A stretch of 64,000 bases of DNA from an archaeon (lineage in GTDB: Archaea; EX4484-52; B79-G9), in assembly GCA_043813875.1 (NCBI GenBank), contig JBDRKP010000054.1, positions 751 through 64,750 on the forward strand, given 5' to 3'. Positions 2,313 to 46,010 of this stretch are shown here, piece after piece. The notes under the pieces were generated by a model that worked only from the letters and a program-made list of their open reading frames with translations, searched no databases and was not told the origin of the DNA. The stretch's first letter is position 1; every line of letters begins with the position of its first letter. A program made the position numbers and the translations under genes.

Positions 2313-3359
2313 TCATTCAAAACCGTGCTTTTTAGGTTTTTGGAGGTCAAAGCTAACGATTTTGTCATATTTGTTAACATTAAACAGACCGTCGATGAAT
2401 TTTTCAACAACCCATATATTTGTCTCAGTATGCTTCGTGATCTCTGACGTCTTGATACTGCCGCCAGAGATAGCGAGAATTGGTATTAGCTGGTCGCATA
2501 GATATTTATCGACACATGCTTTTGCCTTCAATTCATCAATAAGTTGAAGTGCTGCCTCTTCACCGATCGATTCAGCCCTCTTGCCGGGTTCACCGACAGC
2601 TGACGCGCCAAGATACATATCCCCTCCGGTAAAGAGAACAATACCTGCTCCGGGAGAAACAGAATCAACATAAGTCTGTTCAATATCGACTTTACCGGAA
2701 ATATTCGCCTCTTCAAGCCTCTTTTTTGCGCTCTCTGCCTGCCTCAAAGCCACGTCTCTGCCCTCAAGCTCGCTTGAAGCGACACTCAGCCCGGAAATAT
2801 CTGCCTTCTCAGAAAAATGAATAATATCCGCGCATCTTGGTTTAGGCGGCCTTATCTCGACACGCACACGCCCCCCCCCTTTTGGATAGAACCCGTGCCG
2901 CATGACCTCTGCATTGACATCAAATCCGAACCTGGCAATCGCCCGTGAGAACACATTCTGTATATATGTCATCGGTGGAGCCCACTTACCGAAACTTGCC
3001 CCCCCGTCGATTTCTATCCTGATATTCTCTTTGGCTCTTGCAGCAGCTATGATGATCGGCTGGACAACAAGCCCAACAGATCCTGCAGTAGGTATTTTCA
3101 CCTTGATATCATTTTTCAGATCCTTTCCCGGCAAAAACTCCGCCGTCTTTGAACCCACGAAAACTCCCTTGGTCCTGGCAGAACATAGCTTGGCTGCAGC
3201 ATTGATTGCGCACACATGCTGCCACGAAAGTCCGGGATTAGGCCTGTTTGCGCGTATATTCTCTATTCTTGTATCTTTCAGAAAAAGCGCCGAAAGCCCG
3301 ACAGCAGTCCTGACAATCTGCCCTCCGCCCTCATGATATGATCCGTCAATAACAATCAT
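2313..3359 (-). CDS. rtcA: RNA 3'-terminal phosphate cyclase
   Basis: N-terminal IDGSYHEGGGQIVRTA signature and full-length RtcA architecture of about 340 aa. Confidence 0.9.
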   Translation of the reverse strand: MIVIDGSYHEGGGQIVRTAVGLSALFLKDTRIENIRANRPNPGLSWQHVCAINAAAKLCSARTKGVFVGSKTAEFLPGKDLKNDIKVKIPTAGSVGLVVQPIIIAAARAKENIRIEIDGGASFGKWAPPMTYIQNVFSRAIARFGFDVNAEVMRHGFYPKGGGRVRVEIRPPKPRCADIIHFSEKADISGLSVASSELEGRDVALRQAESAKKRLEEANISGKVDIEQTYVDSVSPGAGIVLFTGGDMYLGASAVGEPGKRAESIGEEAALQLIDELKAKACVDKYLCDQLIPILAISGGSIKTSEITKHTETNIWVVEKFIDGLFNVNKYDKIVSFDLQKPKKHGFE

Positions 3360-3424
3360 GATATAGATATCTCTGCTATAAATAAAAAGTTAATCATGCA
3401 ATTTCCTTGTGTGAGTTGATTGAG

Positions 3425-4501
3425 ATGGACATCGAGACAAAAATGGCTCTGGCCCGCGAGGTAGGAGAAGAGATAATAACTGAAGATGAGCTGCGCTCCC
3501 TCTTTGAGACAAAAACGCATCCTATTGCCTACGATGGCTTCGAGCCGTCCGGAAAGATGCACATAGCTCAAGGTATACTGCGCGCGATAAACGTGAACCG
3601 GATGACGAAATCTGGAGTCAGATTCAAGATTCTTGTGGCAGACTGGTTCGCCTGGATGAATAACAAGATGGGTGGTGACCTTGAGAAAATAAGGACCACG
3701 GGCGATTACTTCATAGAGATGTGGAAAGTGCTTGGGATGGACTTGAAGAACGTCGAGTTTATCTGGTCAAAGGACCTTGTGAGACAAGAAGGACATTGGA
3801 AAACCACGATAGATATTGCAAGAGTTTCGACCGTTACAAGAATGCTTCGATGCTCTCAGATTATGGGTAGGCATGAGACTGAGACGTTAAGCGCCGCCCA
3901 GATAATCTATCCCTGTATGCAGGCAGCAGACATATTCCACCTGAAAGCGGATATCTGCCAGCTTGGGATGGATCAGCGAAAAGTCAATATTCTTGCGCGT
4001 GAAGTAGGCCCTAAGTTAGGGTTTTGGAAGCCCGTTTGCGTGCATCATCATATGTTGCTTGGTCTGCCTCCGCCCAGAACCTCTGCCTCCGATCCTTCAG
4101 AGCGGATTCTTGACCTGAAGATGTCAAAATCGAAACCAGATTCCGCGATATTCATGACAGATTCAACTGAGGACATAAAGCGCAAGATTTCAAAGGCATA
4201 TTGTCCTGAAAGAGAACTAAAAGAGAACCCGATAATGGAGTATGCGCAGTATCTCATATTCCCTAAATATGATTCCTTTAAGATTGAGCGTCCTGCAAAA
4301 TTCGGTGGCGACTTGGAAATCATGAATTTCGATGAATTGAGCGCCCTATATTGTAAAGGTAAGATCCACCCGATGGACTTGAAGCAGTCTGTGTCAAGAT
4401 ACATAGACGCAATGATTGAGCCGGTACGCACTCATTTTGAAAAGAACAAGAAAGCAAGATCGCTTCTGGAACAGGTCCAGTCCTACCAGACAACGCGATA
4501 G
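3425..4501 (+). CDS. tyrS: Tyrosyl-tRNA synthetase, archaeal type
   Basis: Aligns residue by residue with M. jannaschii TyrRS (GFEPSGKMH, KMSKS, and a C-terminal ...AYCP...NPIME...RPAKFGGDLE...HPMDLK). The track's TTG start at 3407 is probably an extension; the ATG at about 3425 gives MDIETKMAL. TATAAATA at about 3377. Confidence 0.85.
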   Translation: MDIETKMALAREVGEEIITEDELRSLFETKTHPIAYDGFEPSGKMHIAQGILRAINVNRMTKSGVRFKILVADWFAWMNNKMGGDLEKIRTTGDYFIEMWKVLGMDLKNVEFIWSKDLVRQEGHWKTTIDIARVSTVTRMLRCSQIMGRHETETLSAAQIIYPCMQAADIFHLKADICQLGMDQRKVNILAREVGPKLGFWKPVCVHHHMLLGLPPPRTSASDPSERILDLKMSKSKPDSAIFMTDSTEDIKRKISKAYCPERELKENPIMEYAQYLIFPKYDSFKIERPAKFGGDLEIMNFDELSALYCKGKIHPMDLKQSVSRYIDAMIEPVRTHFEKNKKARSLLEQVQSYQTTR

Positions 4502-6103
4502 TTAGTATTTTTGTTCATCCATTCTTCATATTCTGTATGTTCTCTCTGTAATTCTAATGATTTTACTCACTAAATTCTCACATTTATCTGCAATTTTTTC
4601 AAAAATTCTCTATTTCCTGTGTATTTTCTTTGGTTTTGTGTTCATTTCGACATATTGTTTCTTCATGTGAATTCACTTTCAATTCATGCAGTATATTTGT
4701 CTATGGCTGTGTTCTGATTCAAAACATTCATCTTCATTGCGATGAATATCACGTATCTTCATGTTTTACGGATATTCTTCGTGAATGATATCTGTTTCGT
4801 TAGTAGTTTGCTCTATTGCCGCAGAAATTTATTTATGGGTAATAATTCCTAAAAAAGTGTTATGGCTATGATCCTTATTTTTGGTCTGAGTTATCTCTTT
4901 TGAGTATAGCAATTCCGATGCTATTCCAACTCAGATGCGATTTGTATTTCCGCCTCAATATTCCTTTATCTTGTTGTTTATGTTGCTCTTAGTATGCTTC
5001 TTTTTTTTTTGTGTCATCTCCCGTTAGAGTCAACAGTGATTATTTTGGTTGGTCACATACTCATTTTGAGTGAAGTCGATGTATATGGAAATCGCAGTCA
5101 TTCAGCCGAAATATTGCTTTTTGCTATCTTATGCATGATTCGTATGATGCGTGTCTCACATTTGTTCTGGCAATTATTGATTGTGCGTGCTCTTGTGAAT
5201 TTTATTTGTTCTTTCTTTTGTGATATGATCTTGCAGGTTACCTTGTTTCTCATCCCGCTGTATTCTCTGCGGCTCTCCATATCCTCATTGATGGTAGTTT
5301 GATTTATGATTGAGGTCATTGATTTGGTGACTTACGCTGATGCTATGTGTGTTTTGTTCTCTGTTTAAAAAAGTGGCTTTTGGTCTTTGGCATTATTTTT
5401 TAATCGTAAACTGTCTTGTGATCGTCTCTTCATGAACTTGTCCTCGGACAATCAACCTTCTTTTTGAACGGTTGCCATAATGCTTGTTCTTTTTATTCGG
5501 GGTCTTCATAATTTCCAGTTATTATCCGATACTATCTGTGGTTACGAGGGCAAAAGTATCTGTTTTTTTATTTTGTATTTGTATGTATTTTATTGTTGGA
5601 TTATATTTGGGATAATTGGCTTATTTACAATCCTGTCTCCCGCATTAATATGATTATAGACCCCCGTAACGGGGTTACTATCTCTGTTTACTCGCGGGTA
5701 TTTTTATCGCCCTTGTCCGTTACTATCCGATACTATCTTTCCTAGTATCTATGGTTACTATAGATACTGCTCTATTGTTATCGTTTTTAAAGTAACGGAT
5801 ATGTTTGGTTATTTGTGCGCAGGCTATCGTTTTTCTTATGGTGGTTACTGTATCGGATACTATCGATATTATCGATATCATGGTAACCGATACTATCCAT
5901 TACTCTTATTTGTGTCTTTTTCATTGCCTATGATGCCTCTCTTGTCAATGAAAAAGCTTGAAATCCGCCAATCATACCGAAATTTCATGATTTTTCAATA
6001 AACTCTTATAAAAAACAGTATCTATAAGCCTATTTGTATGCTAGTAACCGTGGTTACCATTATGAGAAACCATATTATGTGTCTATTGCTATCGGTAACG
6101 GCT
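4502..6103. repeat. 1.6-kb AT/T-rich non-coding region with an iteron array (GGTTACTAT / CCGATACTATC / GGTAACC units, at least 8 copies between about 5520 and 6110)
   Basis: Direct reading shows no long ORF apart from a Tyr-rich repeat artefact. The motifs CCGATACTATC occur at about 5524, 5718, 5856 and 5890. GGTTACTAT/GTAACGG/GGTAACC occur at about 5672, 5745, 5800, 5842, 5883, 6048 and 6095. Confidence 0.5.
5950..5997. repeat. 48-bp palindromic intergenic element, copy 1 (A5-GCTTGAAAT-loop-ATTTCATGA-T5)
   Basis: GAAAAAGCTTGAAATccgccaatcataccgAAATTTCATGATTTTTCA. The TGAAAT/ATTTCA stem is flanked by A5 upstream and T5 downstream, so it is symmetric on both strands. Confidence 0.55.
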
Positions 6104-6808
6104 CTATTGGTTGTATAATAATGTTGCTTTGACAGAATTAGGTATGTTGAGCAACTTCTTGTTTTGCGCAATATATTCTTCTATCGGGAATCCCGATTCT
6201 CTGATATCTCTGACATATACTTTGACTGTGTTGTATGTGAGTCCCATCTTAGTTGCGATTTGCTTATAGGATATGGGGCTTTCTGCATGAAGAAGTATGT
6301 TTACTAGCGCTCTTCGTGAATTAGGCAATTGCTCGAGTATTTCTGCAAGGGATGCTTTCGGTTCTGATTGTAATTTGGTTTCAAGTATCATTTCAGGATG
6401 GTCTTCTATATCTGTTTGAGCTAATGCGCTTATATTCAGTACTTCATGCCGCAATGCCTCTAGCTCTTCTTTCGTCACGATTTTTCTTGAGTACTTGTCA
6501 AGGCGCTCTCTGTTCTCGATAGCAAGCTGCCCCATTACCGCGAGGTCTGCGAATTTGGCATTCATCTGGTATACTGCCTCCATGATTTTTTTGATCCTGC
6601 CGTCATATCTGTCCATGCTGTCTTTATCCAGTTCAATCATATTGTGGATCTTCTTGATCTCGAGCGAAAGATCGTGTCTGAGCGCATCGTTTTCTTTGAT
6701 GATTTCAGTTGATATGTCCTTTTTGATATCTTCCTTTATCTTCTCTATATTGATCATTGGGCTGATGCTGCTTTTCTTTCTGCCGAACAAGAGGTCAAAT
6801 AATCCCAT
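6104..6808 (-). CDS. Coiled-coil protein with a C-terminal winged-HTH DNA-binding domain
   Basis: The N-terminal approximately 150 aa are charged coiled-coil. The C-terminus (LAEILEQLPNSRRALVNILLHAESPISYKQIATKMGLTYNTVKVYVRDIRESG) is MarR/ArsR-like wHTH. It sits next to the iteron array. Confidence 0.5.
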   Translation of the reverse strand: MGLFDLLFGRKKSSISPMINIEKIKEDIKKDISTEIIKENDALRHDLSLEIKKIHNMIELDKDSMDRYDGRIKKIMEAVYQMNAKFADLAVMGQLAIENRERLDKYSRKIVTKEELEALRHEVLNISALAQTDIEDHPEMILETKLQSEPKASLAEILEQLPNSRRALVNILLHAESPISYKQIATKMGLTYNTVKVYVRDIRESGFPIEEYIAQNKKLLNIPNSVKATLLYNQ

Positions 6809-6910
6809 TTTATCAACTGATTATATGTTCTTCGATGATTACTATAATTATGGGTGATATGATATATTAATAAATTTGCCTGAATAACCATGGTTTAGGA
6901 TGCGGTACCG

Positions 6911-10511: not shown

Positions 10512-10898
10512 TCAGGCATTCATCGTCGCCTCAAGATAATCCTCGTAATACGGCCTGAAATCATCAAATTCCCTGATAGTATCAATAGCGATATCATATG
10601 CCTTATCATAATCATTGAATAGAAGCACCTTCCCATCCTCAAGCACCCGTTTTCTGATATATATCGGTAGCTTGTTGAATATCTGGACATCGATATCCGG
10701 AAACGCCGAAAGATATTTGAGCCTCTTCTTTGACATCAAAAGCGCGCTCATCCGGCTATCAACCACAAGCGCGACATCGACATCGCGATACTTCTCCCCC
10801 CTCGCCGCGCTCCCGAAAAGTATGACTGCGATGATCTCCTTATCCTCTTTGGCCATCTTAATCACTGGCTCCAAACGCGCCTTGAGTTTCCTGTCCAT
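10512..10898 (-). CDS. Minimal nucleotidyltransferase (MNT-type), solo
   Basis: ILFGSAARGEKYRDVDVALVV is a GS...D.D polymerase-beta-like NTase motif. The internal Met at about 10898 is preferred because a TATA (TTTATATTA) lies about 30 bp upstream of it. The track's GTG start at 11060 is rejected. Confidence 0.6.
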   Translation of the reverse strand: MDRKLKARLEPVIKMAKEDKEIIAVILFGSAARGEKYRDVDVALVVDSRMSALLMSKKRLKYLSAFPDIDVQIFNKLPIYIRKRVLEDGKVLLFNDYDKAYDIAIDTIREFDDFRPYYEDYLEATMNA

Positions 10899-11222
10899 AC
10901 AAACCCTATTGGCTGCGCTATAATATAAATCTGTTCTGTCGCGCGAGTAAAAAATCCCATCAAAAATGTGAGAGTTCCGCTCCTTGATCGATTGGCACGA
11001 ATCAGTCAAAATTTCCAGATTTAGAAAAAACCCTCTTTTGATGGCATCATTCAACACCACATAAAATCGACAGCGTGTAATGATTTATCCGTCAATATGT
11101 CTGCCTTTTCAGGGCTATCGGCAGCCAAAAAAGGCGCAAAAACTTCTCCAAAGACGCGATTACCATACACGTGACACATTAAACACAAAAAATATGATTT
11201 TCACAACAAACCCAAAAAAACG

Positions 11223-17094: not shown

Positions 17095-17182
17095 TATTTA
17101 AAATTTATCTGTTCTGCTTGCTCATCATAAATCTCTTACAATTTTATTTATGTTTTTATTGCATATCGTCTGCATTGGCAAT

Positions 17183-17228
17183 AAAAAGCTTGAAATTCTC
17201 CCATCAGGCCGGGATTTCATGATTTTTA
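17183..17228. repeat. 48-bp palindromic intergenic element, copy 2
   Basis: AAAAAGCTTGAAATtctcccatcaggccggGATTTCATGATTTTTA. It overlaps the 3' end of the HEPN gene and lies upstream of the thrC start. Confidence 0.55.
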
Positions 17229-17677
17229 AAGAACAAGGATGCGTTATCGATAGATTCTTTAGCCGGCTCAACATTCGCCTGCGGTAGCTTCTGGTATGTA
17301 TATTCTCCTCTCTTCCTTTTCTCAAGCGAGTATATGCTCAATAGTTCTTCGGCGCGCAGAAACATTTTCTTGTATATAGTCAATAGATGAACGTCAAGCC
17401 TGCCTGTCTTCACAAAAAAATCATCAAAAGCATCAATCGTTTTCTTATGAACCTCGGGCGCATCCGTTTTGATATCCTCCGTCATAAGAATTGCCTTTGC
17501 CGAATAGAAGATGCAGTAATATGCATGGCTTATGGCCGAACTATAGAACGTGAAATTCTTCTCGAGCTTGAATTCTTCTTTTTGAAGTCTTTCGTTATAA
17601 GAAGTCTCAAAAAGCAGTTGAGCCGCAACAAGTTCAGTCTCAGCTCTTTGCAGATACAGCTCAGCCAATGCGTTCAT
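17204..17677 (-). CDS. HEPN-domain protein (partner of the upstream nucleotidyltransferase)
   Basis: An all-alpha 157-aa protein that overlaps the NTase gene by 17 bp. Its N-terminal LAELYLQRAETELVAAQLLFE is typical of a HEPN helix. Confidence 0.6.
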   Translation of the reverse strand: MNALAELYLQRAETELVAAQLLFETSYNERLQKEEFKLEKNFTFYSSAISHAYYCIFYSAKAILMTEDIKTDAPEVHKKTIDAFDDFFVKTGRLDVHLLTIYKKMFLRAEELLSIYSLEKRKRGEYTYQKLPQANVEPAKESIDNASLFFKNHEIPA

Positions 17678-18287
17678 GTTTCACACCCTTTATCATATTA
17701 TAATACTCAATTAGCCCGTAAAAAACAACATTCTTCCTGTATATCTCTTTTCCGACATTCTCATCATCCGCCAGAAGCATTTCAATAAACTCATTTCTTG
17801 TAAAAACATGATAGTCGATATTGACAATCTCCCGCCTCTTCACAGTTTCAACATAAGGCGCAATATCCTTTTTAGCCTCCCCGCACTCGACAATAATCGC
17901 AATATCGACATCAGACTTCTGTGTTGCCTTATTTTCAGCATAACTGCCAAAGACAATAAGGACAAAGAACTCGGAATACTTCAATATCCTCTTTTGTATA
18001 TCCTCAAGTATCTTCTTCGGTAGTTTCCGGTTTTCATAAATCTCGAGTTCATTTATCAGGTTAAGATATGACAGTGTCAGATTATTGTCAAAATTAAGAT
18101 AATATGTCGTAACATCTCCGGTCATCTGCGTTCTGACAAGATTCTCATCAAGAAACTGTTTCAGCGCAATCTGGACAGTATTATTGGACTTCTGCTTGCT
18201 TTTTTCCTTTATATCCTTAAAAGTAAGGCGCCGAGAAACATCTTCCCGAAAAACACCTAAAATCCTCAACTGTTCCTTAGTCAACAT
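17661..18287 (-). CDS. HTH-fused nucleotidyltransferase (MNT family)
   Basis: N-terminal wHTH (LTKEQLRILGVFREDVSRRLTFKDIKE) plus the NTase motif LIVFGSYAENKATQKSDVDIAIIVE. Confidence 0.7.
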   Translation of the reverse strand: MLTKEQLRILGVFREDVSRRLTFKDIKEKSKQKSNNTVQIALKQFLDENLVRTQMTGDVTTYYLNFDNNLTLSYLNLINELEIYENRKLPKKILEDIQKRILKYSEFFVLIVFGSYAENKATQKSDVDIAIIVECGEAKKDIAPYVETVKRREIVNIDYHVFTRNEFIEMLLADDENVGKEIYRKNVVFYGLIEYYNMIKGVKHERIG

Positions 18288-20894: not shown

Positions 20895-21527
20895 CTATGG
20901 TCTCACCTCTAAAAATCCTTCAAGTACGATTCCATTAGCGATATTAGCAAACAGATTTAAATCGATTTTATTTCTTGAGAAGACATGGACATTTACAGGC
21001 ACATTTATCCTGTATCCTAATTGAGGTATAATCCCAACCTCAAAGATTCGCACGTCTTCATCATCCAGAACTTCAACGGCAATATCTATATCGCTTTTCT
21101 CATTATCATCCCCTTTCCTGTAGCTCCCGAACAGGATAATTGCCTTTGAATTAGGAATCTGTCTATGTATTTCTTCCAGTATGCCGGATTCATATATCAT
21201 GCCTAGGTTATAGCTTATTTTTCGTTGATATAACCGGGGATGATCTTTGTTGGATGATATTCTCCATAGCTTTCCAAGAATCTCTTTTCTTAAGAAACCC
21301 TCATCAACAAGTTGTGTGACAATCCTGTTTGCAGTTGTCTTTGAGATCTTCAGTACCGTCGACAGATCAGTAAGGCTCATTTCTTTATCAGGATACGAAA
21401 AAAACCAGTATTGGATCTTCAGATACGCCTCAAGATCTTCGCGCACTTTTATTTTTTTCATTTTTCTGGCCATAAGATTGGTTACATTCGAAACTATATA
21501 AACTTTTTGATAACCGATTGGTTTCAA
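20895..21527 (-). CDS. HTH-fused nucleotidyltransferase (MNT family)
   Basis: wHTH (LSTVLKISKTTANRIVTQLVDEGFL) plus the NTase motif ILFGSYRKGDDNEKSDIDIAVEV. Confidence 0.7.
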   Translation of the reverse strand: MKPIGYQKVYIVSNVTNLMARKMKKIKVREDLEAYLKIQYWFFSYPDKEMSLTDLSTVLKISKTTANRIVTQLVDEGFLRKEILGKLWRISSNKDHPRLYQRKISYNLGMIYESGILEEIHRQIPNSKAIILFGSYRKGDDNEKSDIDIAVEVLDDEDVRIFEVGIIPQLGYRINVPVNVHVFSRNKIDLNLFANIANGIVLEGFLEVRP

Positions 21528-27901: not shown

Positions 27902-28123
27902 AAGGATAATTGGACAGCAAGAATAATATACCTTACGTGAATCACCGAAAATATCATCCGGATGGTCTGTCTATAAATGCGATTAAGGGAAGTTTTGTTT
28001 CCGCGTGACCAGAAACAAAATTTGGTACTGACATAGTTTGGTACACTTCCCGGAATAATGCATAAACATTTAAATATTGATTATGAATATATATTCACAA
28101 CTAACCAATGGAGGTAGATAAAA

Positions 28124-28366
28124 ATGCCGAATAAAGACAGAACAGGACCCCTTGGACAAGGTGTTCAGACAGGAAGAGGTTTAGGTCCTTGTGGTGGAGG
28201 TATGCGAAAAGGATTAGGAAGAGGTTTTGGTAGAGGGCTGGGTTTAAGATGCAATAGATTAGTTCCTTTAACCGAAGCAGAGGAAAAGAAAGTCGTTGAA
28301 ACAGACCTTAAAGAACTTGATTTGGAAAAGCAAGAGATAGAGAAAAGACTAAAAGAGATGAACTGA
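28124..28366 (+). CDS. DUF5320-family small protein
   Basis: Gly/Arg-rich N-terminus (GPLGQGVQTGRGLGPCGGG) and a C-terminal coiled-coil. A GGAGG RBS lies upstream. This is the first gene of the low-GC island A. Confidence 0.7.
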   Translation: MPNKDRTGPLGQGVQTGRGLGPCGGGMRKGLGRGFGRGLGLRCNRLVPLTEAEEKKVVETDLKELDLEKQEIEKRLKEMN

Positions 28367-28428
28367 TTCATTTCTCTTGCTTTTTTCTTTTCGCAAAATT
28401 TAAATAGGAATATGAATAAGTATTCATT

Positions 28429-28902
28429 ATGGTACGTCCAAGATTGTGCAGAAGAGTTAGATTCAGCCCGGATGTAACCTATTTTAAGCCACAAGGCATT
28501 CCATTAAGAGAATTGCGAGAGGTTATTTTACATGTTGACGAATATGAGGCAGTCAGGCTTAAAGATTTAGAAGGATTAGAGCAGGAAGAATGCGCTAAAA
28601 AAATGAACATTTCACAACCGACTTTCCATCGGCTTGTGTTGTCTGCAAGAAAAAAAATAGCTGACGCCATTGTTAATGCTAAAGCAATCAAAATAGAAGG
28701 AGGTGCTTATGAAATGGTACAACCGATATTTGGAGGCGGAAGGGAACAGGCAGGAAGAATGGGCATAGGCATGGGCTTTGGAGGTCCTGCCATGACTTGC
28801 ATATGCCCTGATTGCGGATATCAGGAACAAAAGGTAAGAGAAGTGCCATGCGCCAGTAAAAAATGTCCCAAATGCGGCACACTGATGAGGAGAGGTGATT
28901 AA
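28429..28902 (+). CDS. DUF134 (UPF0251) predicted DNA-binding protein with a C-terminal zinc ribbon
   Basis: PRLCRRVRFSPDVTYFKPQGIPL...EAVRLKDLEGLEQEECAKKMNISQPTFHRLVLSARKKIADAIVNAKAIKIEG matches DUF134. The C-terminus has CPDCG...CPKCG. Confidence 0.8.
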   Translation: MVRPRLCRRVRFSPDVTYFKPQGIPLRELREVILHVDEYEAVRLKDLEGLEQEECAKKMNISQPTFHRLVLSARKKIADAIVNAKAIKIEGGAYEMVQPIFGGGREQAGRMGIGMGFGGPAMTCICPDCGYQEQKVREVPCASKKCPKCGTLMRRGD

Positions 28903-29248
28903 TATGAAAGTGGCCATAAGTTCGACTGGAAAGGATATAAACAGCAATGTTAGCAATGTGTTTGGAAGATGCCCTTATTTTGTTATCGCAGAGATTGAAA
29001 ACAAAAAAATTACAAAAATTGAATCAATGGAAAATACAACTGCGAATCAGGTGGGTATGGCAGGCATTTCTGCGGCACAGAAAGTTGCAGAAAAAAATGC
29101 AAACATTGTGATAGCAGCAGATGTTGGACCGAGAGCATTAGATGTTTTCAGGCAATTTGATATTATGGCATATAAAGGAAGCGGGACAGTCAAAGAAGTT
29201 TTGCAAAAATTTATAGACGATAGACTTGAGAAAATAGGAAGTAGGTGA
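28895..29248 (+). CDS. NifX/NifB-like dinitrogenase FeMo-cofactor-binding domain protein
   Basis: FGRCPYFVI signature of the Nitro_FeMo-Co domain. The 117-aa length fits. Confidence 0.8.
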   Translation: MINMKVAISSTGKDINSNVSNVFGRCPYFVIAEIENKKITKIESMENTTANQVGMAGISAAQKVAEKNANIVIAADVGPRALDVFRQFDIMAYKGSGTVKEVLQKFIDDRLEKIGSR

Positions 29249-29252
29249 GAAA

Positions 29253-29612
29253 ATGAAAATAGTGATTTCAACAGATGGTAAAAGAGGATTAGATGACACA
29301 GTGGCAGAACATTTTGGCAGATGTAATACATATACTTTTCTTGATGAGAAAGGCAATATTGTTGAAATAATAGACAACACCAGCGAGCACATGGGTGGCA
29401 CAGGGCTTCCACCAGAGCTTATGAAAAAACATGGAGCGGATGTCTTATTATGCAGAGGGCTTGGCCCAAGAGCTCTTGATCTGTGCAAAGAACTGGGAAT
29501 AGATGTTTATGTATGCCATGCAGAAACCGTAAAAGAAATATTTGAGAAATGGAAAAATAAGATAATTAAAAAGGCAGGTTTTGAAGATGTTTGCGAGGAG
29601 CATAGGCTATGA
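29253..29612 (+). CDS. NifX/NifB-like FeMo-cofactor-binding domain protein (second paralog)
   Basis: HFGRCNTYTFLD signature. A tandem paralog of the preceding gene. Confidence 0.8.
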   Translation: MKIVISTDGKRGLDDTVAEHFGRCNTYTFLDEKGNIVEIIDNTSEHMGGTGLPPELMKKHGADVLLCRGLGPRALDLCKELGIDVYVCHAETVKEIFEKWKNKIIKKAGFEDVCEEHRL

Positions 29613-30217
29613 AGAATAGCAAAGCAGAGGCATTTAATAGGAAATCATCTAGCCCGAAAAACAGACCCGATGATGTTATAAAAGCGTTGAGCTTAAAGCA
29701 GGGACAAAACATTGCAGACATAGGAGCAGGAGGAGGCTATTTTTCACTCAGGTTCGCAGAAATAGTCGGCGTAAAAGGAAAGGTTTATGCGATAGATATA
29801 AATCAGGATTTTCTGGAATTCATAAAAAATAGCGCTGCAGAAAAAGGTCTTGACAATTTAGAGATCGCTTTTGCCAAAGATGGCAAAATTGATTTGCCAA
29901 AGAAAAGAATTGATCTCATATTTTTCCGCAATATGACCCACCATATGGAAAACAGGGCTGAATATTTCAGGCAGCTAAATCAGTTCCTTGCTCCTCACGG
30001 CAGGATTGCCATTATAGAGTACAAAAAGGAAAGTTCCTTTACCTTCCACGGGATTTTCAGACATTACATTGCCAAAGAAACCTTGATGCAGGAGATGGAA
30101 GATGCTGGCTATGTTCCTGAGAGGGAACTTGATTTCTTGCCTGAACAGCACTTTGTTATTTACAGACGCGGGAGTTCTGCTTTAAACAAGAATAGGATTA
30201 AAGGTGAAAAAAGATGA
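29609..30217 (+). CDS. Class I SAM-dependent methyltransferase
   Basis: Motif I DIGAGGGYF and motif II KVYAIDIN. Confidence 0.75.
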   Translation: MKNSKAEAFNRKSSSPKNRPDDVIKALSLKQGQNIADIGAGGGYFSLRFAEIVGVKGKVYAIDINQDFLEFIKNSAAEKGLDNLEIAFAKDGKIDLPKKRIDLIFFRNMTHHMENRAEYFRQLNQFLAPHGRIAIIEYKKESSFTFHGIFRHYIAKETLMQEMEDAGYVPERELDFLPEQHFVIYRRGSSALNKNRIKGEKR

Positions 30218-31086
30218 GAATCGCAGTTACGGGCGGAAAAGGTGGAACAGGCAAGTCAATGGTAGCGACTTCATTAGCAGTTGAATTTGCAAGAAATGAA
30301 AAGACCCTGCTTATGGATGCGGATGCAGAATGCCCCAATGATCATTTACTGCTTTCCATAGATATGAAAAAATACGCTGCTGTTTATCAGCCGATACCTA
30401 AATGGAATTTTGATAAATGTATAAAATGTGGCAAGTGCGCTTCTGTCTGCAAACAAAATGCCATTGTTTTTGTTAAAGAGAAATATCCTGCTTTTGTTAA
30501 GGATGTTTGTATTGGTTGTAAAGCATGTATTGTTACATGCCCAAAAAAAGCTATAACTGAAACCAAAAAAGAAATCGGAACAATCTTTACAGGAAAAAAC
30601 TATAATGTAAATTTGGTTTCAGGCGAGCTCAAATTAGGAGAACTTGCATCAGGGGAGGTAGTTGCTGAATTAAGAAAATGTTCTGAAAAGATAGGCAAAA
30701 AGATGAAGGCAGATATAATTTTAATAGACTCTGCTGCAGGAGTTGGCTGCCCGGTAATCGCCTCTTTGGTCGGAACGGATTATATCGTTGGCGTAACAGA
30801 ACCAACACCATCTGCTCTTCATGATTTGAAAAGGGTTTTGTATCTGGCAAATCATTTTGGGATTAAGCATGGAATTGTCATAAACAAATTTGATCTTGAA
30901 AGAGGTTTCTGCTCAGAAATAGAGAAATTTGCAAAGGAGAACAATATACCTATTATTGGAAGGATTCCATACAGAAAAGTTTTTGTGGACTCAACAATAA
31001 AGATGAAGCCTGTTGTTGAAATAAACCCCAAATATAGAAAAACATTCGAGGAGATTATCAACAAAATAAAGATTGTGTGCGGTTAA
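30214..31086 (+). CDS. MinD/ParA-family P-loop ATPase with two embedded 4Fe-4S ferredoxin motifs
   Basis: Deviant Walker A GGKGGTGKS. Two CxxCxxCxxxCP clusters (CIKCGKCASVCKQ, CIGCKACIVTCP) are inserted after the P-loop. Confidence 0.8.
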   Translation: MRIAVTGGKGGTGKSMVATSLAVEFARNEKTLLMDADAECPNDHLLLSIDMKKYAAVYQPIPKWNFDKCIKCGKCASVCKQNAIVFVKEKYPAFVKDVCIGCKACIVTCPKKAITETKKEIGTIFTGKNYNVNLVSGELKLGELASGEVVAELRKCSEKIGKKMKADIILIDSAAGVGCPVIASLVGTDYIVGVTEPTPSALHDLKRVLYLANHFGIKHGIVINKFDLERGFCSEIEKFAKENNIPIIGRIPYRKVFVDSTIKMKPVVEINPKYRKTFEEIINKIKIVCG

Positions 31087-31116
31087 GAATGAAAGAATTG
31101 AGACATATAAACTGCA

Positions 31117-31500
31117 TTAATTTTTTTGGCATTTTTTACAGTCGTCTTTACATATACCTCTTACTTCAAGCTGAAAACTTCTTATCGAGCCAGGAATCTT
31201 GTCTTTTAGGAAATCCAGAGAGTCAATATTAAAGTGAAAAATCTTGCCAGTACTTTCACATATAAAATGGCAGTGGCTTTTATTCTGTTTGGAGTATATC
31301 GTTTTTCTGTCGCATTTATAAGAATATATCTGGTTGCTCTTTTTTAGCTCATTTAGAAACCGGTAAATTGTGGCAATTCCTATATTTTTTTCTTCTTTCT
31401 TAGCCTCTTCCAGTAAGTCTTCAGCAGTAAAAAAATTATTTATTTTTTCTAATTTTGTCTGAATGCTCTCTTTTTGTCTGGTGTTTCTTTTCTTTACCAT
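31117..31500 (-). CDS. Fur-family metalloregulator (likely Zur)
   Basis: DNA-binding helix ATIYRFL, a metal site HCHFICESTG..HF, and a C-terminal CxxC. It is divergent from znuA2. Confidence 0.75.
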   Translation of the reverse strand: MVKKRNTRQKESIQTKLEKINNFFTAEDLLEEAKKEEKNIGIATIYRFLNELKKSNQIYSYKCDRKTIYSKQNKSHCHFICESTGKIFHFNIDSLDFLKDKIPGSIRSFQLEVRGICKDDCKKCQKN

Positions 31501-31562
31501 ATAGATCTCTTATTGATAATCTTAATCAATAAGGTATTTAAAATGAGCCTATTTATAAATTT

Positions 31563-32564
31563 ATGGTGATTCCCATGAAAACTAAAATTATCTTTATGTC
31601 TGTGTTAATTGTTGCTGTTTTATTGGTTGCTGGTTGTGTAAACAATGTACAAAAAGAGTCTAAAGACAAGATGACAATTGTAACAACACTTTTTCCATTA
31701 TATGAATTTGCAAAAGAAGTCGGTGGTGAAAAGATTGATGTGACTCTTTTACTTCCACCAGGAGCAGAAGCCCACACTTTTGAGCCAAAGCCAAGCGATA
31801 TACAAAAAATAAACAACGCAGATGTTTTTTTATATATTGGAGCAGGCATGGAGCCATGGGCTCACGATATTGTGGAAGGTTCTAATAATAAGGACTTGTT
31901 GCTTTTAGATGCAAGCTCTAAAGTAACTTTGCTTAAATCAGAAGAGCATGATGAACACGAACATGAGGCAGAGGAAGAACACGATCACGAATCAGAAGAA
32001 CATGAAGAAGAGCATCAGCATGGTGAATATGACCCTCATATCTGGCTTGATTTTGAAAATGATGAAAAAATAGTGGATGCGATTGCTCAAACATTTGCCC
32101 AAAAAGACCCAAAAAATAGCGAGTTTTACATAAAAAATGCTCAAGGATATAATGCTAAGTTGAGTTCTTTGAATCAAAAGTATAGTGATGGGCTATCTAA
32201 TTGCAAACAAAAGGAATTCATATCAGGTGGGCATAACGCATTTGCATATCTTGCTCATAAATATAACCTCGAATCAATCTCAGCATTTGGAATATCCCCG
32301 GATTCTGAGCCAACTCCTCAGAAAATCAAAGAGATAGTTGATCTGACAAAAGAGCATGGCATTAAATACATATACTTTGAAAAATTAGTGAATCCAAAAA
32401 TGGCTGAGACAATTGCTCAGGAAGCAAATGCTAAAACATTAGTCTTAAATCCTGCGCATAATCTTCTAAAGGAGCAATTTCAGCAAGAAGTAACTTTCAT
32501 CTCTCTGATGGAAGAAAACTTACAGAATCTTAAAATTGGTTTGGAATGTGAATCAAATTCATGA
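31563..32564 (+). CDS. znuA: Zinc ABC transporter substrate-binding protein (island copy) with a His/Glu-rich loop
   Basis: Signal peptide plus a TroA-like SBP. A long acidic/His loop (EEHDEHEHEAEEEHDHESEEHEEEHQHGEYDPH) is diagnostic of zinc-specific ZnuA. Confidence 0.85.
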   Translation: MVIPMKTKIIFMSVLIVAVLLVAGCVNNVQKESKDKMTIVTTLFPLYEFAKEVGGEKIDVTLLLPPGAEAHTFEPKPSDIQKINNADVFLYIGAGMEPWAHDIVEGSNNKDLLLLDASSKVTLLKSEEHDEHEHEAEEEHDHESEEHEEEHQHGEYDPHIWLDFENDEKIVDAIAQTFAQKDPKNSEFYIKNAQGYNAKLSSLNQKYSDGLSNCKQKEFISGGHNAFAYLAHKYNLESISAFGISPDSEPTPQKIKEIVDLTKEHGIKYIYFEKLVNPKMAETIAQEANAKTLVLNPAHNLLKEQFQQEVTFISLMEENLQNLKIGLECESNS

Positions 32565-33295
32565 GCACCATGCTTAAACTGGAAAACATATCTTTTTCCT
32601 ATGCTAACTCGGATGTTGTAAAAGATATCTCCTTTTCAGTTAAAAAAGGAGATTTTGTAGGATTAATAGGTCCAAATGGCTCAGGAAAGACCACTCTCCT
32701 CAAAATTATATTAGGAATATTGAATCCGCGAAAAGGCTCTATTTATTTATTTGAAAGGGACTTGAAAAAATTTGATAAATGGGATAAGATTGGATATGTC
32801 CCACAAAAAGCAACAAATATCGAGAAAAATTTTCCAGCAACAGTTCATGAAGTCGTTTCTATGGGGCTTTTGGCAATTAAGAAATTTCCGAAAATAATCA
32901 CAAAACAAGATGACACAGAAATAAAAAATGCTCTTTCTGTTGTAAGGATGGAAAAATATTCACAAAAAAGGATTACTGAGCTTTCTGGAGGGCAACAGCA
33001 AAGAGTTTTAATCGCAAAAGCATTGGTAACAAAGCCAGAAATCTTGATTCTTGACGAGCCGACAACAGGAGTTGATCAGGAAAACCAGAAGTCATTTTAT
33101 GACTTGCTTGGAAAACTCAACAAAGAAGGAATGACTATTGTTTTAGTGTCCCATGATATTGGAAGAATAACTCAGTATGTAACTAAAATAGCAAGTATTA
33201 ACCAAACACTTAATTTTTATGGGAGTCACAAAGAATTTTGCTTAAAAGATCCAGCCCATAAACATGAGCATAGTTTATGCTTGGATAAAGGTTAA
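32561..33295 (+). CDS. znuC: Zinc ABC transporter ATP-binding protein (island copy)
   Basis: GPNGSGKTT, LSGGQQQRV and ILILDEP. Confidence 0.9.
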   Translation: MSTMLKLENISFSYANSDVVKDISFSVKKGDFVGLIGPNGSGKTTLLKIILGILNPRKGSIYLFERDLKKFDKWDKIGYVPQKATNIEKNFPATVHEVVSMGLLAIKKFPKIITKQDDTEIKNALSVVRMEKYSQKRITELSGGQQQRVLIAKALVTKPEILILDEPTTGVDQENQKSFYDLLGKLNKEGMTIVLVSHDIGRITQYVTKIASINQTLNFYGSHKEFCLKDPAHKHEHSLCLDKG

Positions 33296-33298
33296 AAA

Positions 33299-34147: not shown

Positions 34148-34183
34148 AATCCCCCAATAACATCAAAATTTCATGATTTTTCA
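34136..34183. repeat. 48-bp palindromic intergenic element, copy 3
   Basis: GAAAAAGCTTGAAATcccccaataacatcaAAATTTCATGATTTTTCA, located between the convergent znuB (island copy) and the thioredoxin-like gene. Confidence 0.55.
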
Positions 34184-34316
34184 GTAAGAAAGTTGAGTGC
34201 GTCCCTTTAGTTACAAAATCCCCCTCGTTCTTAGTTTAGTAAGCCGAAAATTGAATATATCAATACTTTGTCCTATATTTGCCCATCTCTACCATAGCCA
34301 CGCCTCATTCTGTGGG

Positions 34317-37920: not shown

Positions 37921-38024
37921 ACTAACTTATCCGGTCATCAATATATTTATATTTAAGGAATTTTCTCACGCCTTGACATGAAAAATAAATAGTAATAAAT
38001 AAAGGTTATGTTTAAGTATAATAT

Positions 38025-40823: not shown

Positions 40824-40825
40824 TT

Positions 40826-40851: not shown

Positions 40852-40868
40852 AAAGGTATATAAAGCTA

Positions 40869-45966: not shown

Positions 45967-46010
45967 GTGATCGTGCATGAATACTCCAATTGGGTACTTG
46001 AGGTGAAAAC

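What the first reader, a model, noticed from the sequence alone, without database searches (positions are those of the whole stretch)
4502..6103. 1.6-kb non-coding, strand-biased T-rich region with an array of short iterons, next to a coiled-coil/wHTH gene
Between the convergent tyrS and the wHTH gene there is no credible ORF. The first 900 bp are strongly T-rich on the top strand. The last 600 bp hold at least 8 copies of GGTTACTAT / CCGATACTATC / GGTAACC-type units in both orientations. Iteron clusters beside an AT-rich unwinding region are the hallmark of replication origins or plasmid and virus integration remnants, and the adjacent DNA-binding protein is a candidate iteron binder. No orc1/cdc6 is nearby, so this would be a non-canonical origin, an integrated replicon remnant, or a large regulatory or ncRNA region.
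Basis: partly seen in the sequence, partly recalled or inferred. Interest (0 to 1): 0.5.

Follow-up and report, generated by a model that had tools for sequence, protein, structure and literature searches.

The report
Conserved repeat array beside its DNA-binding gene
A cluster of short palindromic DNA repeats next to a gene for a coiled-coil DNA-binding protein is conserved across an uncultivated archaeal lineage. Distant relatives of the protein in DPANN archaea carry their own repeat arrays, in one clade beside a textbook replication origin, so this looks like a new protein-plus-binding-site module for chromosome maintenance rather than an origin itself.

Summary
Region 4502-6103 has no credible gene and is T-rich on the top strand. 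Its last ~600 bp hold a repeat cluster that is unique in the window: 23 GWTAY pentamers in 400 bp against ~4 expected.

The repeats form odd palindromes: GATA-S-TATC, GGT-W-ACC and a 21-bp composite. They are almost invariant in 10 or more related lineages and always lie between tyrS and the coiled-coil/HTH gene, even where that gene is inverted. The 900-bp T-rich part is not conserved.

The protein belongs to an undescribed archaeal family (hhalign probability 99.75% to the DPANN relatives). In all five remote loci examined, a subfamily-specific array of short palindromes lies directly 3' of the gene. In three Woesearchaeota-type loci, canonical ORB origin boxes, MCM, TBP and (in two of them) PolD flank the gene on its 5' side.

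The window locus has no ORB motif and no orc1/cdc6 in 64 kb. Its strong GC skew keeps the same sign on both sides.

Verdict: this is the cognate binding array of the adjacent protein, a self-contained protein/cis-site module. It is probably a centromere-like or origin-accessory nucleoprotein site, not an Orc1/ORB origin and not a replicon remnant. Its function remains inferred.

The parts
3407..4501 (+). tyrS (tyrosyl-tRNA synthetase), the conserved left flank
   Evidence: Pfam tRNA-synt_1b, E 3e-50. It is syntenic in all relatives that extend far enough.
4562..4600 (+). Conserved element just after tyrS: CTnAnTAAAyyCTCACATTT-N7-9-TTTTTT. It is probably the tyrS terminator or 3' element. A second TCTCACATTT lies at 5154.
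   Evidence: It is present 57-100 nt after the tyrS stop in the window, L003, L175, L176 and L177, and also in L002 and L005. Identity to the window is 49%, against ~25% in the surrounding spacer.
4601..5500 (.). T-rich, non-conserved spacer with no gene. The equivalent space in relatives holds variable cargo.
   Evidence: Identity to relatives is 24-26%, the level of a random alignment. There are no Pfam hits in the four frames scanned. L003 has a Nudix-like ORF here, L175 a tRNA_edit fragment and L005 a duplicated HTH C-terminus.
5518..5560 (.). Iteron block 1: GTTATTATCC GATACTATC TGTGGTTAC ... GTATC
   Evidence: Identity across 6 other lineages is 56%.
5557..5650 (.). AT-rich tract between iteron blocks (GC 18% over 5557-5616)
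   Evidence: It is conserved only in the closest relative, L178, and it is not the AT-richest 60-mer in the window.
5655..5691 (.). Iteron block 2: CCCCGTAACGGGG palindrome followed by GGTTACTATC
5715..5812 (.). Iteron block 3: CGTTACTATCCGATACTATC ... GTATC..GGTTAC..GATAC ... CTCTATTGTTATCGTTTTTAAAGTAACGGATAT..GGTTAT
   Evidence: Identity is 73%, and 64% of columns are near-invariant across 7 lineages.
5843..5905 (.). Iteron block 4, the core: GGTTACTGTATCGGATACTATCGATATTATCGATATCATGGTAACCGATACTATCCATTACT. It holds 9-bp tandem CGATAYTAT units plus the 21-bp composite palindrome GTAACCGATA-S-TATCGGTTAC.
   Evidence: Identity is 87%, and 80% of columns are near-invariant, across lineages whose HTH proteins are only 55-64% identical.
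5906..5992 (.). Inserted small repeat element (ATGAAAAAGCTTGAAAT-N16-ATTTCATGATTTTTCA). It is not part of the array.
   Evidence: It is absent from the relative L178, whose HTH gene is 88% identical at DNA level. Other copies lie at 34134-34187 and 17144-17233.
6016..6103 (.). Iteron block 5, next to the HTH stop codon: CAGTATCTATA, CTAGTAACCGTGGTTACCAT, CTATCGGTAACGG
   Evidence: Identity is 52% for 6041-6103. In the sister clade this end abuts the TATA box of the inverted HTH gene.
6104..6808 (-). Gene for the 234-aa protein. It has a conserved N-terminal peptide (MGLFDLLFGRKK), a long helical hairpin or coiled coil (about residues 20-106), a linker, and a C-terminal sigma-70-region-4/LuxR-like HTH (about residues 150-212) that is almost invariant.
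   Evidence: Pfam HTH_11 scores 29.8 bits (cutoff 25) and Sigma70_r4_2 scores 26.6 bits (cutoff 25.7). Alignment A1. AlphaFold2 model with mean pLDDT 64. Foldseek gives sigma region 4/DosR/VpsT hits. hhalign to the DPANN relatives gives 99.75%.
6809..6910 (.). Divergent promoter region of the HTH gene and serS. It has a conserved TTTATAAT-type box and no iteron cluster.

Best explanation
Proposal. The right-hand ~600 bp (5518-6103, minus the insertion at 5906-5992) is the cognate binding array of the neighbouring coiled-coil/HTH protein.

Anatomy. The array is built from GWTAY half-sites arranged as odd palindromes: GATA-S-TATC, GGT-W-ACC and the composite GTAACCGATA-S-TATCGGTTAC. Many are spaced 9-10 bp apart.

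Inferred mechanism. The protein dimerises or oligomerises through its helical hairpin. Each HTH reads one half-site. Cooperative binding along ~20 half-sites builds one large nucleoprotein complex at a single chromosomal locus. The conserved N-terminal peptide would then be free to contact a partner, such as a ParA/MinD-type ATPase, the membrane or replication factors.

Role. Gene plus adjacent array is a self-contained module shared by a whole, undescribed archaeal protein family. I infer a chromosome-maintenance role, either centromere-like or origin-accessory, and not a role as the Orc1/ORB initiation site.

Other parts. In the sister clade the array also overlaps the gene's own promoter, so autoregulation is a likely secondary function there. 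The left-hand 900-bp T-rich stretch is non-conserved spacer.

Shown: the array, its conservation, its linkage to the gene, the family-wide pattern, and the ORB adjacency in Woesearchaeota-type relatives.
Inferred: binding by this protein, oligomerisation, and the cellular role.
For: 1. Uniqueness and enrichment of the array.

2. Near-invariance of blocks 5715-5810 (73% identity) and 5850-5905 (87%) in lineages whose HTH proteins are 55-64% identical, while the spacers sit at random-alignment level.

3. The array lies next to the gene in every locus with enough sequence: L001-L006 and L175-L181. This holds in the clade where the gene alone is inverted (tyrS> array HTH> serS>).

4. The sites act as DNA, not RNA. 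Palindrome arms are broken without compensation in the window and in L176. Conservation is equal in all six frames. Rfam finds nothing.

5. The HTH region of the protein is almost invariant while the coiled coil varies, which matches the invariant target.

6. Family-level co-variation. The remote homologues are full-length relatives (hhalign 99.75%, E 2e-27). Each has a different short palindromic repeat concentrated in the 300 nt after its stop codon:
- CGTTATAAC-type, 5 copies, in L184
- CATTATAATG-type, 4 copies in L185 and 5 exact-pattern matches in L187 (about 9 by eye)
- TAGACG/CGTCTA, 10 copies in L186 and 8 in L188
. The recognition-helix sequence differs in parallel: TYNTVKVYVRD, SINTVRVYMNQ and SVSTIKNHICN.

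7. Chromosome-maintenance context. In L184, L185 and L187 the gene lies 130-650 nt from canonical ORB boxes, with 0-3 mismatches to the DoriC common ORB motif (PMC4164010). It also lies next to TBP and MCM, and to PolD DP1/DP2 in L184 and L185. In L186 and L188 it is near RFC and FEN1.

8. A repeat array just 3' of the binding-protein gene, plus a conserved N-terminal peptide, parallels the layout of plasmid partition loci (parB-parS, sopB-sopC; my own knowledge). N-terminal partner peptides of archaeal and bacterial centromere-binding proteins are described in bioRxiv 10.1101/2025.11.19.689047.
Against: - No binding data exist. The protein-array link rests only on adjacency and co-variation.
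- No ParA/ParM/TubZ-type motor gene is adjacent in any locus. The only ParA/MinD-like ORF in the window is a Fer4-containing CbiA-family gene 24 kb away.
- Single-copy status in the genome cannot be checked from 64 kb.
- The window lineage has no replication genes or ORB near the module, so the origin association is clade-specific.
- In the sister clade, and partly in L187, the repeats reach the gene's promoter, so plain autoregulation could explain part of the pattern.
- The structural model is only moderately confident (pLDDT 64), and the N-terminal domain matches nothing specific.
Confidence: 0.55

Rival explanations
1. The region is a replication origin, non-canonical or secondary. In this reading the iterons are initiator-binding sites, the AT-rich or T-rich DNA is the unwinding element, and the adjacent HTH protein is a lineage-specific initiator or origin-specifier, comparable to WhiP at Sulfolobus oriC3.
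For: - Intergenic repeats in both orientations flank an AT-rich tract (GC 18% at 5557-5616).
- The gene for a DNA-binding protein is adjacent.
- The element is highly conserved.
- Woesearchaeota-type homologues sit next to canonical ORB origins and MCM, with PolD in two of the three loci.
- GC skew is locally weakened between 3.4 and 8.8 kb in the window and in L176.
Against: - No ORB motif with up to 4 mismatches occurs in the window or in any same-lineage locus.
- None of ~56 window ORFs, and no ORF within 10 kb in the relatives, is orc1/cdc6, MCM, primase or another replisome gene.
- The very strong strand skew (-0.2 to -0.38, independent of gene strand) has the same sign on both sides of the locus in the window, L001, L175, L176 and L005. 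L175 shows no local dip.
- In the Woesearchaeota-type loci the ORBs and the iterons are separate elements on opposite sides of the gene, so the iterons are not the initiator boxes.
- The AT-rich tract is not conserved beyond the closest relative.
- The protein has no AAA+ or Rep-like domain.
Confidence: 0.12
2. The array is only a transcriptional operator. The HTH protein is an ordinary autoregulated transcription factor, and the repeats control its own promoter, a neighbouring promoter, or convergent read-through between tyrS and the HTH gene.
For: - In the sister clade the last repeats abut the TATA box of the HTH gene.
- L187 has a small repeat cluster upstream of the gene as well.
- The HTH is of the sigma region 4/LuxR type typical of transcription factors.
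- In L003 a Nudix-like ORF starts just beyond the array.
Against: - In the window clade, and in all five remote loci, the main array lies 3' of the gene, 700 bp or more from its promoter. That promoter is conserved and free of iterons.
- The gene downstream of the array varies or is absent: nothing in the window, Nudix, a tRNA_edit fragment, ThiI-like, PmbA/TldD, or unknown ORFs.
- About 20 half-sites spread over 400-600 bp, kept in order across lineages, is far more than an operator needs.
Confidence: 0.2
3. The region is a remnant of an integrated plasmid or virus replicon, made up of a Rep-like protein and iterons.
For: - Iterons beside a small DNA-binding gene resemble the rep/par modules of plasmids.
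- Cargo next to the array varies between lineages.
- An inserted small repeat element is present.
Against: - The order RtcA-tyrS-array-HTH-serS is conserved in all relatives.
- There is no integrase, Rep or other mobile-element gene nearby.
- No homologue of the protein occurs in 2.9 million viral contigs.
- The only viral matches to the repeat are a coding DTI tandem repeat.
- Composition does not differ from normal intergenic DNA.
Confidence: 0.03
4. The region encodes a long non-coding RNA, or a long 3' UTR of the HTH gene, on the A-rich bottom strand. In this reading the repeats are RNA elements.
For: - The bottom strand is purine/A-rich like coding strands in this genome.
- The T>A bias on the tyrS-sense strand recurs in most relatives.
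Against: - The T-rich part is not conserved in sequence.
- In several relatives the bias is explained by real ORFs on that strand.
- Palindrome arms change without compensation.
- There is no Rfam match.
- The bias keeps its orientation relative to tyrS when the HTH gene is inverted, so it is not a 3' UTR of that gene.
Confidence: 0.05

Closest known systems
Plasmid and chromosomal partition centromeres with their centromere-binding proteins: P1 parB-parS, F sopB-sopC, R1 ParR-parC, pBtoxis TubR-tubC, pSM19035 omega heptads; in archaea pNOB8 AspA, Sulfolobus SegB and Haloferax HpaB
   Same: - A cluster of many short repeats in both orientations lies directly beside, here mostly 3' of, the gene for a small dimeric DNA-binding protein.
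- The protein has a conserved N-terminal peptide and an oligomerisation region.
- In one clade the module lies next to the chromosomal origin, as parS/parB does in bacteria.
- Autoregulation is likely where the array meets the promoter.
The layouts of the plasmid systems are from my own knowledge. AspA, SegB and HpaB are as summarised in bioRxiv 10.1101/2025.11.19.689047.
   Different: - No ParA/ParM/TubZ motor gene is adjacent in any of the ~15 loci.
- The DNA-binding domain is a sigma-region-4/LuxR-like HTH joined to a long helical hairpin. It is not a ParB fold, an RHH or a PadR-like wHTH.
- There is no detectable sequence relationship to any of these proteins.
Archaeal oriC of the ORB/Orc1-Cdc6 type (Pyrococcus, Sulfolobus oriC1/2, haloarchaea; Sulfolobus oriC3 with WhiP)
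   Same: - It is an intergenic cluster of dyad-symmetric repeats in both orientations with an AT-rich tract.
- A DNA-binding protein gene is adjacent.
- Homologous modules in Woesearchaeota-type genomes sit beside true ORB origins.
   Different: - The repeats are not ORBs: the window has zero matches to TCCASTKGAAAYRAAGGGGT with up to 4 mismatches.
- There is no orc1/cdc6, whiP or replisome gene nearby.
- There is no skew switch.
- Where ORBs exist they are separate from the iterons.
Iteron-controlled plasmid origins (Rep/iterons: pSC101, R6K, P1 oriR/incA)
   Same: Repeats beside the gene of their presumed binding protein, including an array 3' of the gene, as with P1 incA (my own knowledge).
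   Different: - Plasmid iterons are 17-22-bp direct repeats. Here the units are 5-9-bp palindromic half-sites in mixed orientation.
- The protein lacks WH1-WH2 Rep features.
- The context is chromosomal and syntenic, and no mobile genes are present.
LuxR/GerE and ECF-sigma region-4 helix-turn-helix domains
   Same: The C-terminal domain matches Sigma70_r4_2 and HTH_11 just above the Pfam cut-offs. It superposes on SigD/SigE region 4, DosR and VpsT DNA-binding domains.
   Different: - There is no sigma region 2 and no receiver domain.
- The domain is fused to an N-terminal coiled coil found only in this archaeal family.
- Its targets are dense arrays rather than a single -35 box or lux box.

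Membership tests
Archaeal ORB/Orc1-Cdc6 replication origin | Origin recognition boxes (DoriC common motif TCCA[CG]T[TG]GAAA[TC][GA]AAGGGGT, PMC4164010) | tested here: not met
   No match with up to 4 mismatches in the 64-kb window, L001-L005, L175-L177 or L180. As a positive control, matches were found in L184 (1 mismatch), L185 (3 mismatches) and L187 (0 and 2 mismatches). Simpler ORB patterns are also absent from 4502-6103.
Archaeal ORB/Orc1-Cdc6 replication origin | Adjacent orc1/cdc6 (or whiP, primase or another replication gene) | tested here: not met
   Pfam scans of ~56 window ORFs found none. None is listed within 10 kb in L001, L175, L176 or L177.
Archaeal ORB/Orc1-Cdc6 replication origin | Location at an extremum or sign switch of compositional skew | tested here: not met
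   Plus-strand GC skew is -0.2 to -0.38 on both sides, independent of gene strand, in the window and in four related loci. Cumulative skew falls monotonically through the locus. Only 64 kb is available, so the true extremum could not be located.
Archaeal ORB/Orc1-Cdc6 replication origin | AT-rich unwinding element flanked by the repeats | tested here: inconclusive
   A tract with GC 18% lies at 5557-5616 between repeat blocks. It is not the AT-richest in the window and is conserved only in the closest relative.
Archaeal ORB/Orc1-Cdc6 replication origin | Initiation activity (autonomous replication, marker-frequency peak) | not testable with these tools
   This needs coverage profiles of the population or an ARS assay.
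Iteron-type plasmid origin (Rep + iterons) | Tandem direct repeats of ~17-22 bp plus a Rep initiator with WH domains, in a mobile-element context | tested here: not met
   The units are 5-9-bp palindromic half-sites in mixed orientation. The protein has no Rep family hit. Chromosomal synteny is conserved and there are no viral homologues.
Partition centromere plus centromere-binding protein | [quoted passage not shown] | tested here: met
   The array abuts the HTH gene in all ~10 lineages of the window family and in 5 of 5 remote family loci. Binding itself is inferred.
Partition centromere plus centromere-binding protein | Partner NTPase motor (ParA/SegA, ParM or TubZ) encoded in the same operon | tested here: not met
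   No such gene is adjacent in any locus. A distant orphan partner cannot be excluded.
Partition centromere plus centromere-binding protein | Homology of the protein to a known centromere-binding protein (ParB, RHH ParG/ParR/SegB/HpaB, TubR, AspA) | tested here: not met
   A PDB profile search gave nothing. Pfam, NCBIfam and Foldseek hits are only to generic HTHs.
Sigma-70 region 4 / LuxR-type HTH superfamily (C-terminal domain only) | Profile match above the curated cut-off, plus structural superposition | tested here: met
   Sigma70_r4_2 scores 26.6 bits against a 25.7 cutoff and HTH_11 scores 29.8 against 25. Foldseek aligns 44-65 residues to SigD4, SigE4 and DosR-C with TM(target) 0.54-0.66, but overall E-values are weak.
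ESCRT-III / PspA-Vipp1 (considered because of the N-terminal MGLFD..FG.KK peptide and helical hairpin) | Profile similarity to Snf7 or PspA_IM30 | tested here: not met
Proposed new family: archaeal coiled-coil/HTH protein with an adjacent palindromic iteron array | ~210-290-aa protein (short conserved N-terminal peptide, long coiled coil, C-terminal HTH ...P(L/I)SY.QIA.K(T/M)G...T(V/I)(K/R)VY...LYN) plus a dense array of short palindromes within ~300-600 nt of the gene | tested here: met
   A1 against A3 gives hhalign 99.75% over 210 columns. Arrays are present in every locus examined.

The most novel reading that the evidence does not exclude
The module is the cis-acting centromere, or an origin-proximal control locus, together with its binding protein. 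It would belong to a previously unknown chromosome-maintenance system of DPANN archaea and of this 'Nanohalarchaeota'-labelled lineage. The coiled-coil/HTH protein would polymerise on its private palindrome array. Through its conserved N-terminal peptide it would tether that one chromosomal site to a partner: a motor ATPase, the membrane or division site, or the replisome at the neighbouring ORB origin.
Probability: 0.25. Interest if true: 0.8.

Novelty: new variant of a known kind. Interest (0 to 1): 0.6.

Why it matters
How archaea outside the Sulfolobales and haloarchaea segregate or position their chromosomes is largely unknown, and so is how origin activity is controlled in DPANN archaea. 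No cis-acting sites have been described for these groups.

This locus defines a compact, testable pair. One part is a ~190-bp near-invariant DNA core (5715-5905). The other is a 234-aa protein that could be expressed heterologously.

It also generalises. Related proteins in Woesearchaeota/Nanoarchaeota-type genomes each have a private array, and in one clade that array sits beside a canonical ORB origin, MCM and, in two of the three loci, PolD.

If the module is a centromere or an origin-accessory site, it gives a handle on chromosome biology in uncultivated archaea and a marker for locating origins in their MAGs. If it proves to be only an autoregulatory operator, it is still a clean example of protein-site co-variation, but of modest importance.

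Tried and rejected
1. Exact 15-mer scans (GATAGTATCGGTTAC) of the viral and metagenome collections returned 48 hits and 120 or more hits. These were chance single hits: none showed a comparable repeat cluster and none encoded the HTH gene.

2. A specific 22-mer scan of viral contigs gave two hits. Both are a coding (GATACTATC)x3 repeat in a phage gene and are unrelated.

3. A protein-based viral scan found no relatives.

4. Pseudogene hypothesis for the T-rich 900 bp. There are no Pfam hits in the four frames scanned and no protein-level similarity to the cargo ORFs of relatives.

5. Recoded stop codons. All three stop codons are present in every frame.

6. RNA gene. Rfam at gathering threshold and at E up to 10 gave only noise. 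There are no tRNAs. The arms of the palindromes do not co-vary.

7. ESCRT-III/PspA homology of the N-terminal domain was rejected.

8. Solved-structure relatives by sequence: none.

9. The sigma-70 promoter and intrinsic-terminator scan is uninformative for an archaeon. The one 'terminator' it found is the window-specific palindrome at 5743-5769.

10. Literature searches for the motif, for DPANN origins and for archaeal centromeres found no description of this family or array.

11. Iterons in the HTH/serS promoter of the window clade: none.
Full report
**1. What is there**

tyrS (3407-4501, +) and a 234-aa coiled-coil/HTH gene (6104-6808, -) converge on 1602 bp that hold no credible gene.
- The longest ORFs are 102 aa on the T-rich strand, where stop codons are rare by composition, and 73 aa on the other strand.
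- Pfam finds nothing in the four of six reading frames scanned.
- All three stop codons occur in all frames.
- Rfam and tRNA scans are empty.
- The top strand is 43.5% T and 22% A, with AT skew between -0.27 and -0.47 throughout.

The repeats are real.
- GATACTATC occurs 6 times in the window against 0.49 expected, and 4 copies lie in 5528-5897.
- GGTTACTAT with up to 1 mismatch has 8 of its 16 window hits in 5673-6060.
- The underlying half-site GWTAY (reverse complement RTAWC) occurs 23 times in 5501-5900. The window mean is ~4 per 400 bp and the highest count elsewhere is 12.

**2. Anatomy of the array**

The half-sites are arranged as odd palindromes:
- GATA-S-TATC
- GGT-W-ACC
- CCCCGT-A-ACGGGG
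- the 21-bp composite GTAACCGATA-S-TATCGGTTAC

In the core (5843-5905) there are three 9-bp tandem CGATAYTAT units. Neighbouring half-sites are mostly 6, 9 or 10 bp apart.

The array falls into five blocks: 5518-5560, 5655-5691, 5715-5812, 5843-5905 and 6016-6103. An AT-rich tract (GC 18% at 5557-5616) separates blocks 1 and 2.

Coordinates 5906-5992 are not part of the array. They are a small repeat element with two other copies in the window. It is missing at this site in the close relative L178, so it is an insertion.

**3. Conservation in the lineage**

The HTH protein family is tiny: 19 clusters among 5.8 billion proteins. They come from MAGs labelled 'archaeon' or 'Candidatus Nanohalarchaeota'.

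I recovered the locus from a same-species MAG (L001, 99.7% identity) and a close relative whose HTH gene is 88% identical at DNA level (L178). I also recovered it from lineages whose proteins are only 55-64% identical: L002-L006, L175-L177 and L179-L181.

Every locus with enough sequence has the repeat cluster next to the gene.

In a seven-lineage alignment, identity to the window is as follows:

| Window segment | Identity | Near-invariant columns |
|---|---|---|
| 5850-5905 | 87% | 80% |
| 5715-5810 | 73% | 64% |
| 5501-5550 | 56% | 38% |
| 6041-6103 | 52% | 37% |
| Spacers and the 4601-5500 T-rich stretch | 17-26% (random alignment) | 3-9% |

Similarity is equal in all six frames. Palindrome arms change without compensation, in the window copy and in L176. 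The selection therefore acts on double-stranded DNA sites, not on a peptide or an RNA hairpin.

In a sister clade (L177, L179-L181) the HTH gene alone is inverted, giving tyrS> array HTH> serS>. The array keeps its place and its orientation relative to tyrS, and its last repeats abut the gene's TATA box.

That refutation fails, and clearly.

**4. The T-rich 900 bp**

This part is not conserved in sequence. In relatives the same interval holds different things: a Nudix-like ORF (L003), a tRNA_edit fragment (L175), and a duplicated HTH C-terminus (L005).

Only a short element 57-100 nt after the tyrS stop is shared (AAAyyCTCACATTT followed by a T-run). It is probably the tyrS 3' end or terminator.

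I read the T-rich stretch as decaying or variable spacer, not as a functional unwinding region. I could not explain why its T>A bias recurs in most lineages.

**5. The protein**

- The conserved N-terminal peptide is MGxFDxLFGxKK.
- Two long helices (about residues 20-59 and 64-106) form a hairpin or coiled coil, followed by a low-confidence linker.
- The C-terminal HTH (about residues 150-212) is nearly invariant across the family, whereas the coiled coil varies.
- Pfam places the HTH just above threshold in HTH_11 and Sigma70_r4_2.
- Foldseek superposes it on sigma region 4 and on DosR/VpsT-type domains.
- Nothing specific matches the N-terminal part.
- The ESCRT-III/PspA idea, prompted by the N-terminal peptide, was tested and rejected.

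**6. A wider family with the same design**

An exhaustive HMM search found ~40 remote relatives of the same length and architecture. A profile of 13 of them retrieved 73 proteins, named Woesearchaeota or Nanoarchaeota where named at all.

The two profiles align over 210 columns with 99.75% probability, N-terminal peptide included. No Pfam or NCBIfam family covers them.

I could look up five of their loci. In all five, a dense array of short palindromes lies within 300 nt after the stop codon, and the repeat differs by subfamily:

| Locus | Repeat | Copies near the stop | Copies elsewhere in the locus |
|---|---|---|---|
| L184 | CGTTATAAC-type | 5 | 1 |
| L185 | CATTATAATG-type | 4 | 3 |
| L187 | CATTATAATG-type | 5 exact-pattern matches (about 9 by eye) | 1, just upstream of the gene |
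| L186 | TAGACG/CGTCTA | 10 | 5 |
| L188 | TAGACG/CGTCTA | 8 | 6 |

The presumed recognition helix differs in parallel: TYNTVKVYVRD, SINTVRVYMNQ and SVSTIKNHICN.

This family-level co-variation is the strongest evidence available here that each protein binds its neighbouring array.

**7. Link to replication, and why this locus is still not an ORB origin**

In L184, L185 and L187 the homologue's 5' neighbours are TBP and MCM. PolD DP1/DP2 lies a few kb away in L184 and L185.

The 335-760-nt gap upstream of the gene contains canonical origin recognition boxes. TCCAGTGGAAATAAAGGGGT in L187 matches the DoriC 'common' ORB motif of PMC4164010 perfectly. The others match with 1-3 mismatches.

In these genomes the module is therefore origin-adjacent. 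The ORBs and the iterons are distinct elements on opposite sides of the gene. The second remote subfamily lies near RFC and FEN1 but has no ORB within 10 kb.

In the window lineage there is no ORB-like sequence with up to 4 mismatches in 64 kb or in any related locus. None of ~56 ORFs encodes orc1/cdc6, MCM or another replisome protein.

The genome's unusually strong strand asymmetry also argues against an origin here. Plus-strand GC skew is -0.2 to -0.38 irrespective of gene orientation, and GC3 skew reaches -0.59. The sign is the same on both sides of the locus in the window, L001, L175, L176 and L005.

A dominant bidirectional origin or terminus would switch the sign. A local weakening of the skew between 3.4 and 8.8 kb is seen in the window and in L176 but not in L175, so I do not lean on it.

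**8. Most likely mechanism**

Shown:
- a unique, strongly conserved array of palindromic half-sites
- obligate linkage of that array to the gene
- a family-wide 'gene plus private array' design
- origin adjacency in one clade

Inferred:
- the protein dimerises or oligomerises through its helical hairpin and reads GWTAY half-sites with its HTH
- it coats the ~20 half-sites cooperatively and forms one large nucleoprotein complex
- its free, conserved N-terminal peptide recruits a partner

The layout most resembles partition centromeres. It has an array directly 3' of the binding-protein gene, as in parB-parS and sopB-sopC. It has an N-terminal partner peptide, and bacterial parS lies next to oriC. 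I therefore favour a centromere-like or origin-accessory role.

My estimates:
- about 0.75 that the array is the protein's cognate site
- about 0.3 that the role is segregation or anchoring
- about 0.12 that the locus itself fires as an origin
- about 0.2 that it is only an operator

The main weakness is the absence of any adjacent motor NTPase and of any experimental data.

**9. Comparison with known systems, and novelty**

- It works like a centromere/centromere-binding-protein or Rep/iteron module. It fails membership tests for ORB/Orc1 origins (motif, initiator gene and skew all not met).
- It fails for iteron plasmid origins (repeat type, Rep protein and mobile context not met).
- It fails for known centromere-binding protein families (no homology, no motor gene).
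- Only the HTH domain can be filed, in the sigma-region-4/LuxR superfamily.
- I found no description of the protein family or of the arrays in the searchable literature.

[quoted passage not shown] There is a realistic chance that it marks a new archaeal chromosome-maintenance system.

**10. Limits**

- Only 64 kb of the genome and 10 kb either side of each relative were available.
- The single metagenome scan was wasted on a pattern that was too short.
- Genome-wide copy number of the array, the true origin position and any partner protein remain unknown.

Noticed in passing
window 1-64000 (also L001, L175, L176, L005): Strand asymmetry is exceptionally strong for an archaeon. Plus-strand GC skew is -0.2 to -0.38 over most of the window regardless of gene orientation, and GC3 skew reaches -0.59. 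This implies that one replication direction dominates across the whole window, with the origin probably to the right.
   Followed up: partly
window 28000-34200 and 38000-48400: Two low-GC islands (0.31-0.39) have the opposite GC skew. One carries FUR, ZnuABC-type metal transport, DUF134 and a MinD/ParA-like Fer4 protein. The other carries a type I restriction-modification system (HsdR/S/M) with ORF6N, Bro-N and Schlafen/AlbA-HTH genes. They are probably horizontally acquired.
   Followed up: partly
window 5906-5992, 34134-34187, 17144-17233: A small repeat element, ATGAAAAAGCTTGAAAT-N16-ATTTCATGATTTTTCA, has conserved arms and a variable centre. At 5906-5992 it is an insertion relative to L178. 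The AAAAAGCTTGAAAT arm also occurs in intergenic DNA of L002, L005 and L175. Its RNA fold is not significant (z -0.96). Possible readings are a bidirectional terminator, a protein-binding site or a MITE-like element.
   Followed up: partly
L005 6627-6863: A partial duplicate of the HTH protein's C-terminus (residues 153-234, 74% identity) lies between the intact gene and the iteron array. This points to local rearrangement at this locus.
   Followed up: no
L184 9779-9890, L185 9734-9843, L187 2975-3083: Canonical ORB boxes lie between TBP/MCM and the HTH homologue in Woesearchaeota/Nanoarchaeota-type contigs. These are apparently unannotated oriC candidates with no orc1/cdc6 within 10 kb.
   Followed up: partly
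window 4562-4600 and 5150-5163: The motif TCTCACATTT occurs twice. The first copy is part of an element conserved after tyrS in seven loci. The meaning of the second copy is unknown.
   Followed up: partly
window 2313-3359 versus L001 11202-12249: The RtcA (RNA 3'-phosphate cyclase) gene is intact in the window but is called as two fragments in the 99.7%-identical MAG contig. This could be a frameshift or an assembly error.
   Followed up: no
window 5743-5769: A 12-bp-arm near-perfect palindrome (AGTATCTATGGT/ACTATAGATACT) lies inside iteron block 3 and could form a cruciform. It is specific to the window lineage and is not palindromic in the relatives.
   Followed up: partly
window 10512-11060, 17661-18287, 20895-21527, 56132-56806: There are four paralogous Polbeta/NTP_transf_2 nucleotidyltransferase genes in 64 kb, several next to small ORFs with no family hit. 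They may be toxin-antitoxin (MNT/HEPN-like) pairs.
   Followed up: no
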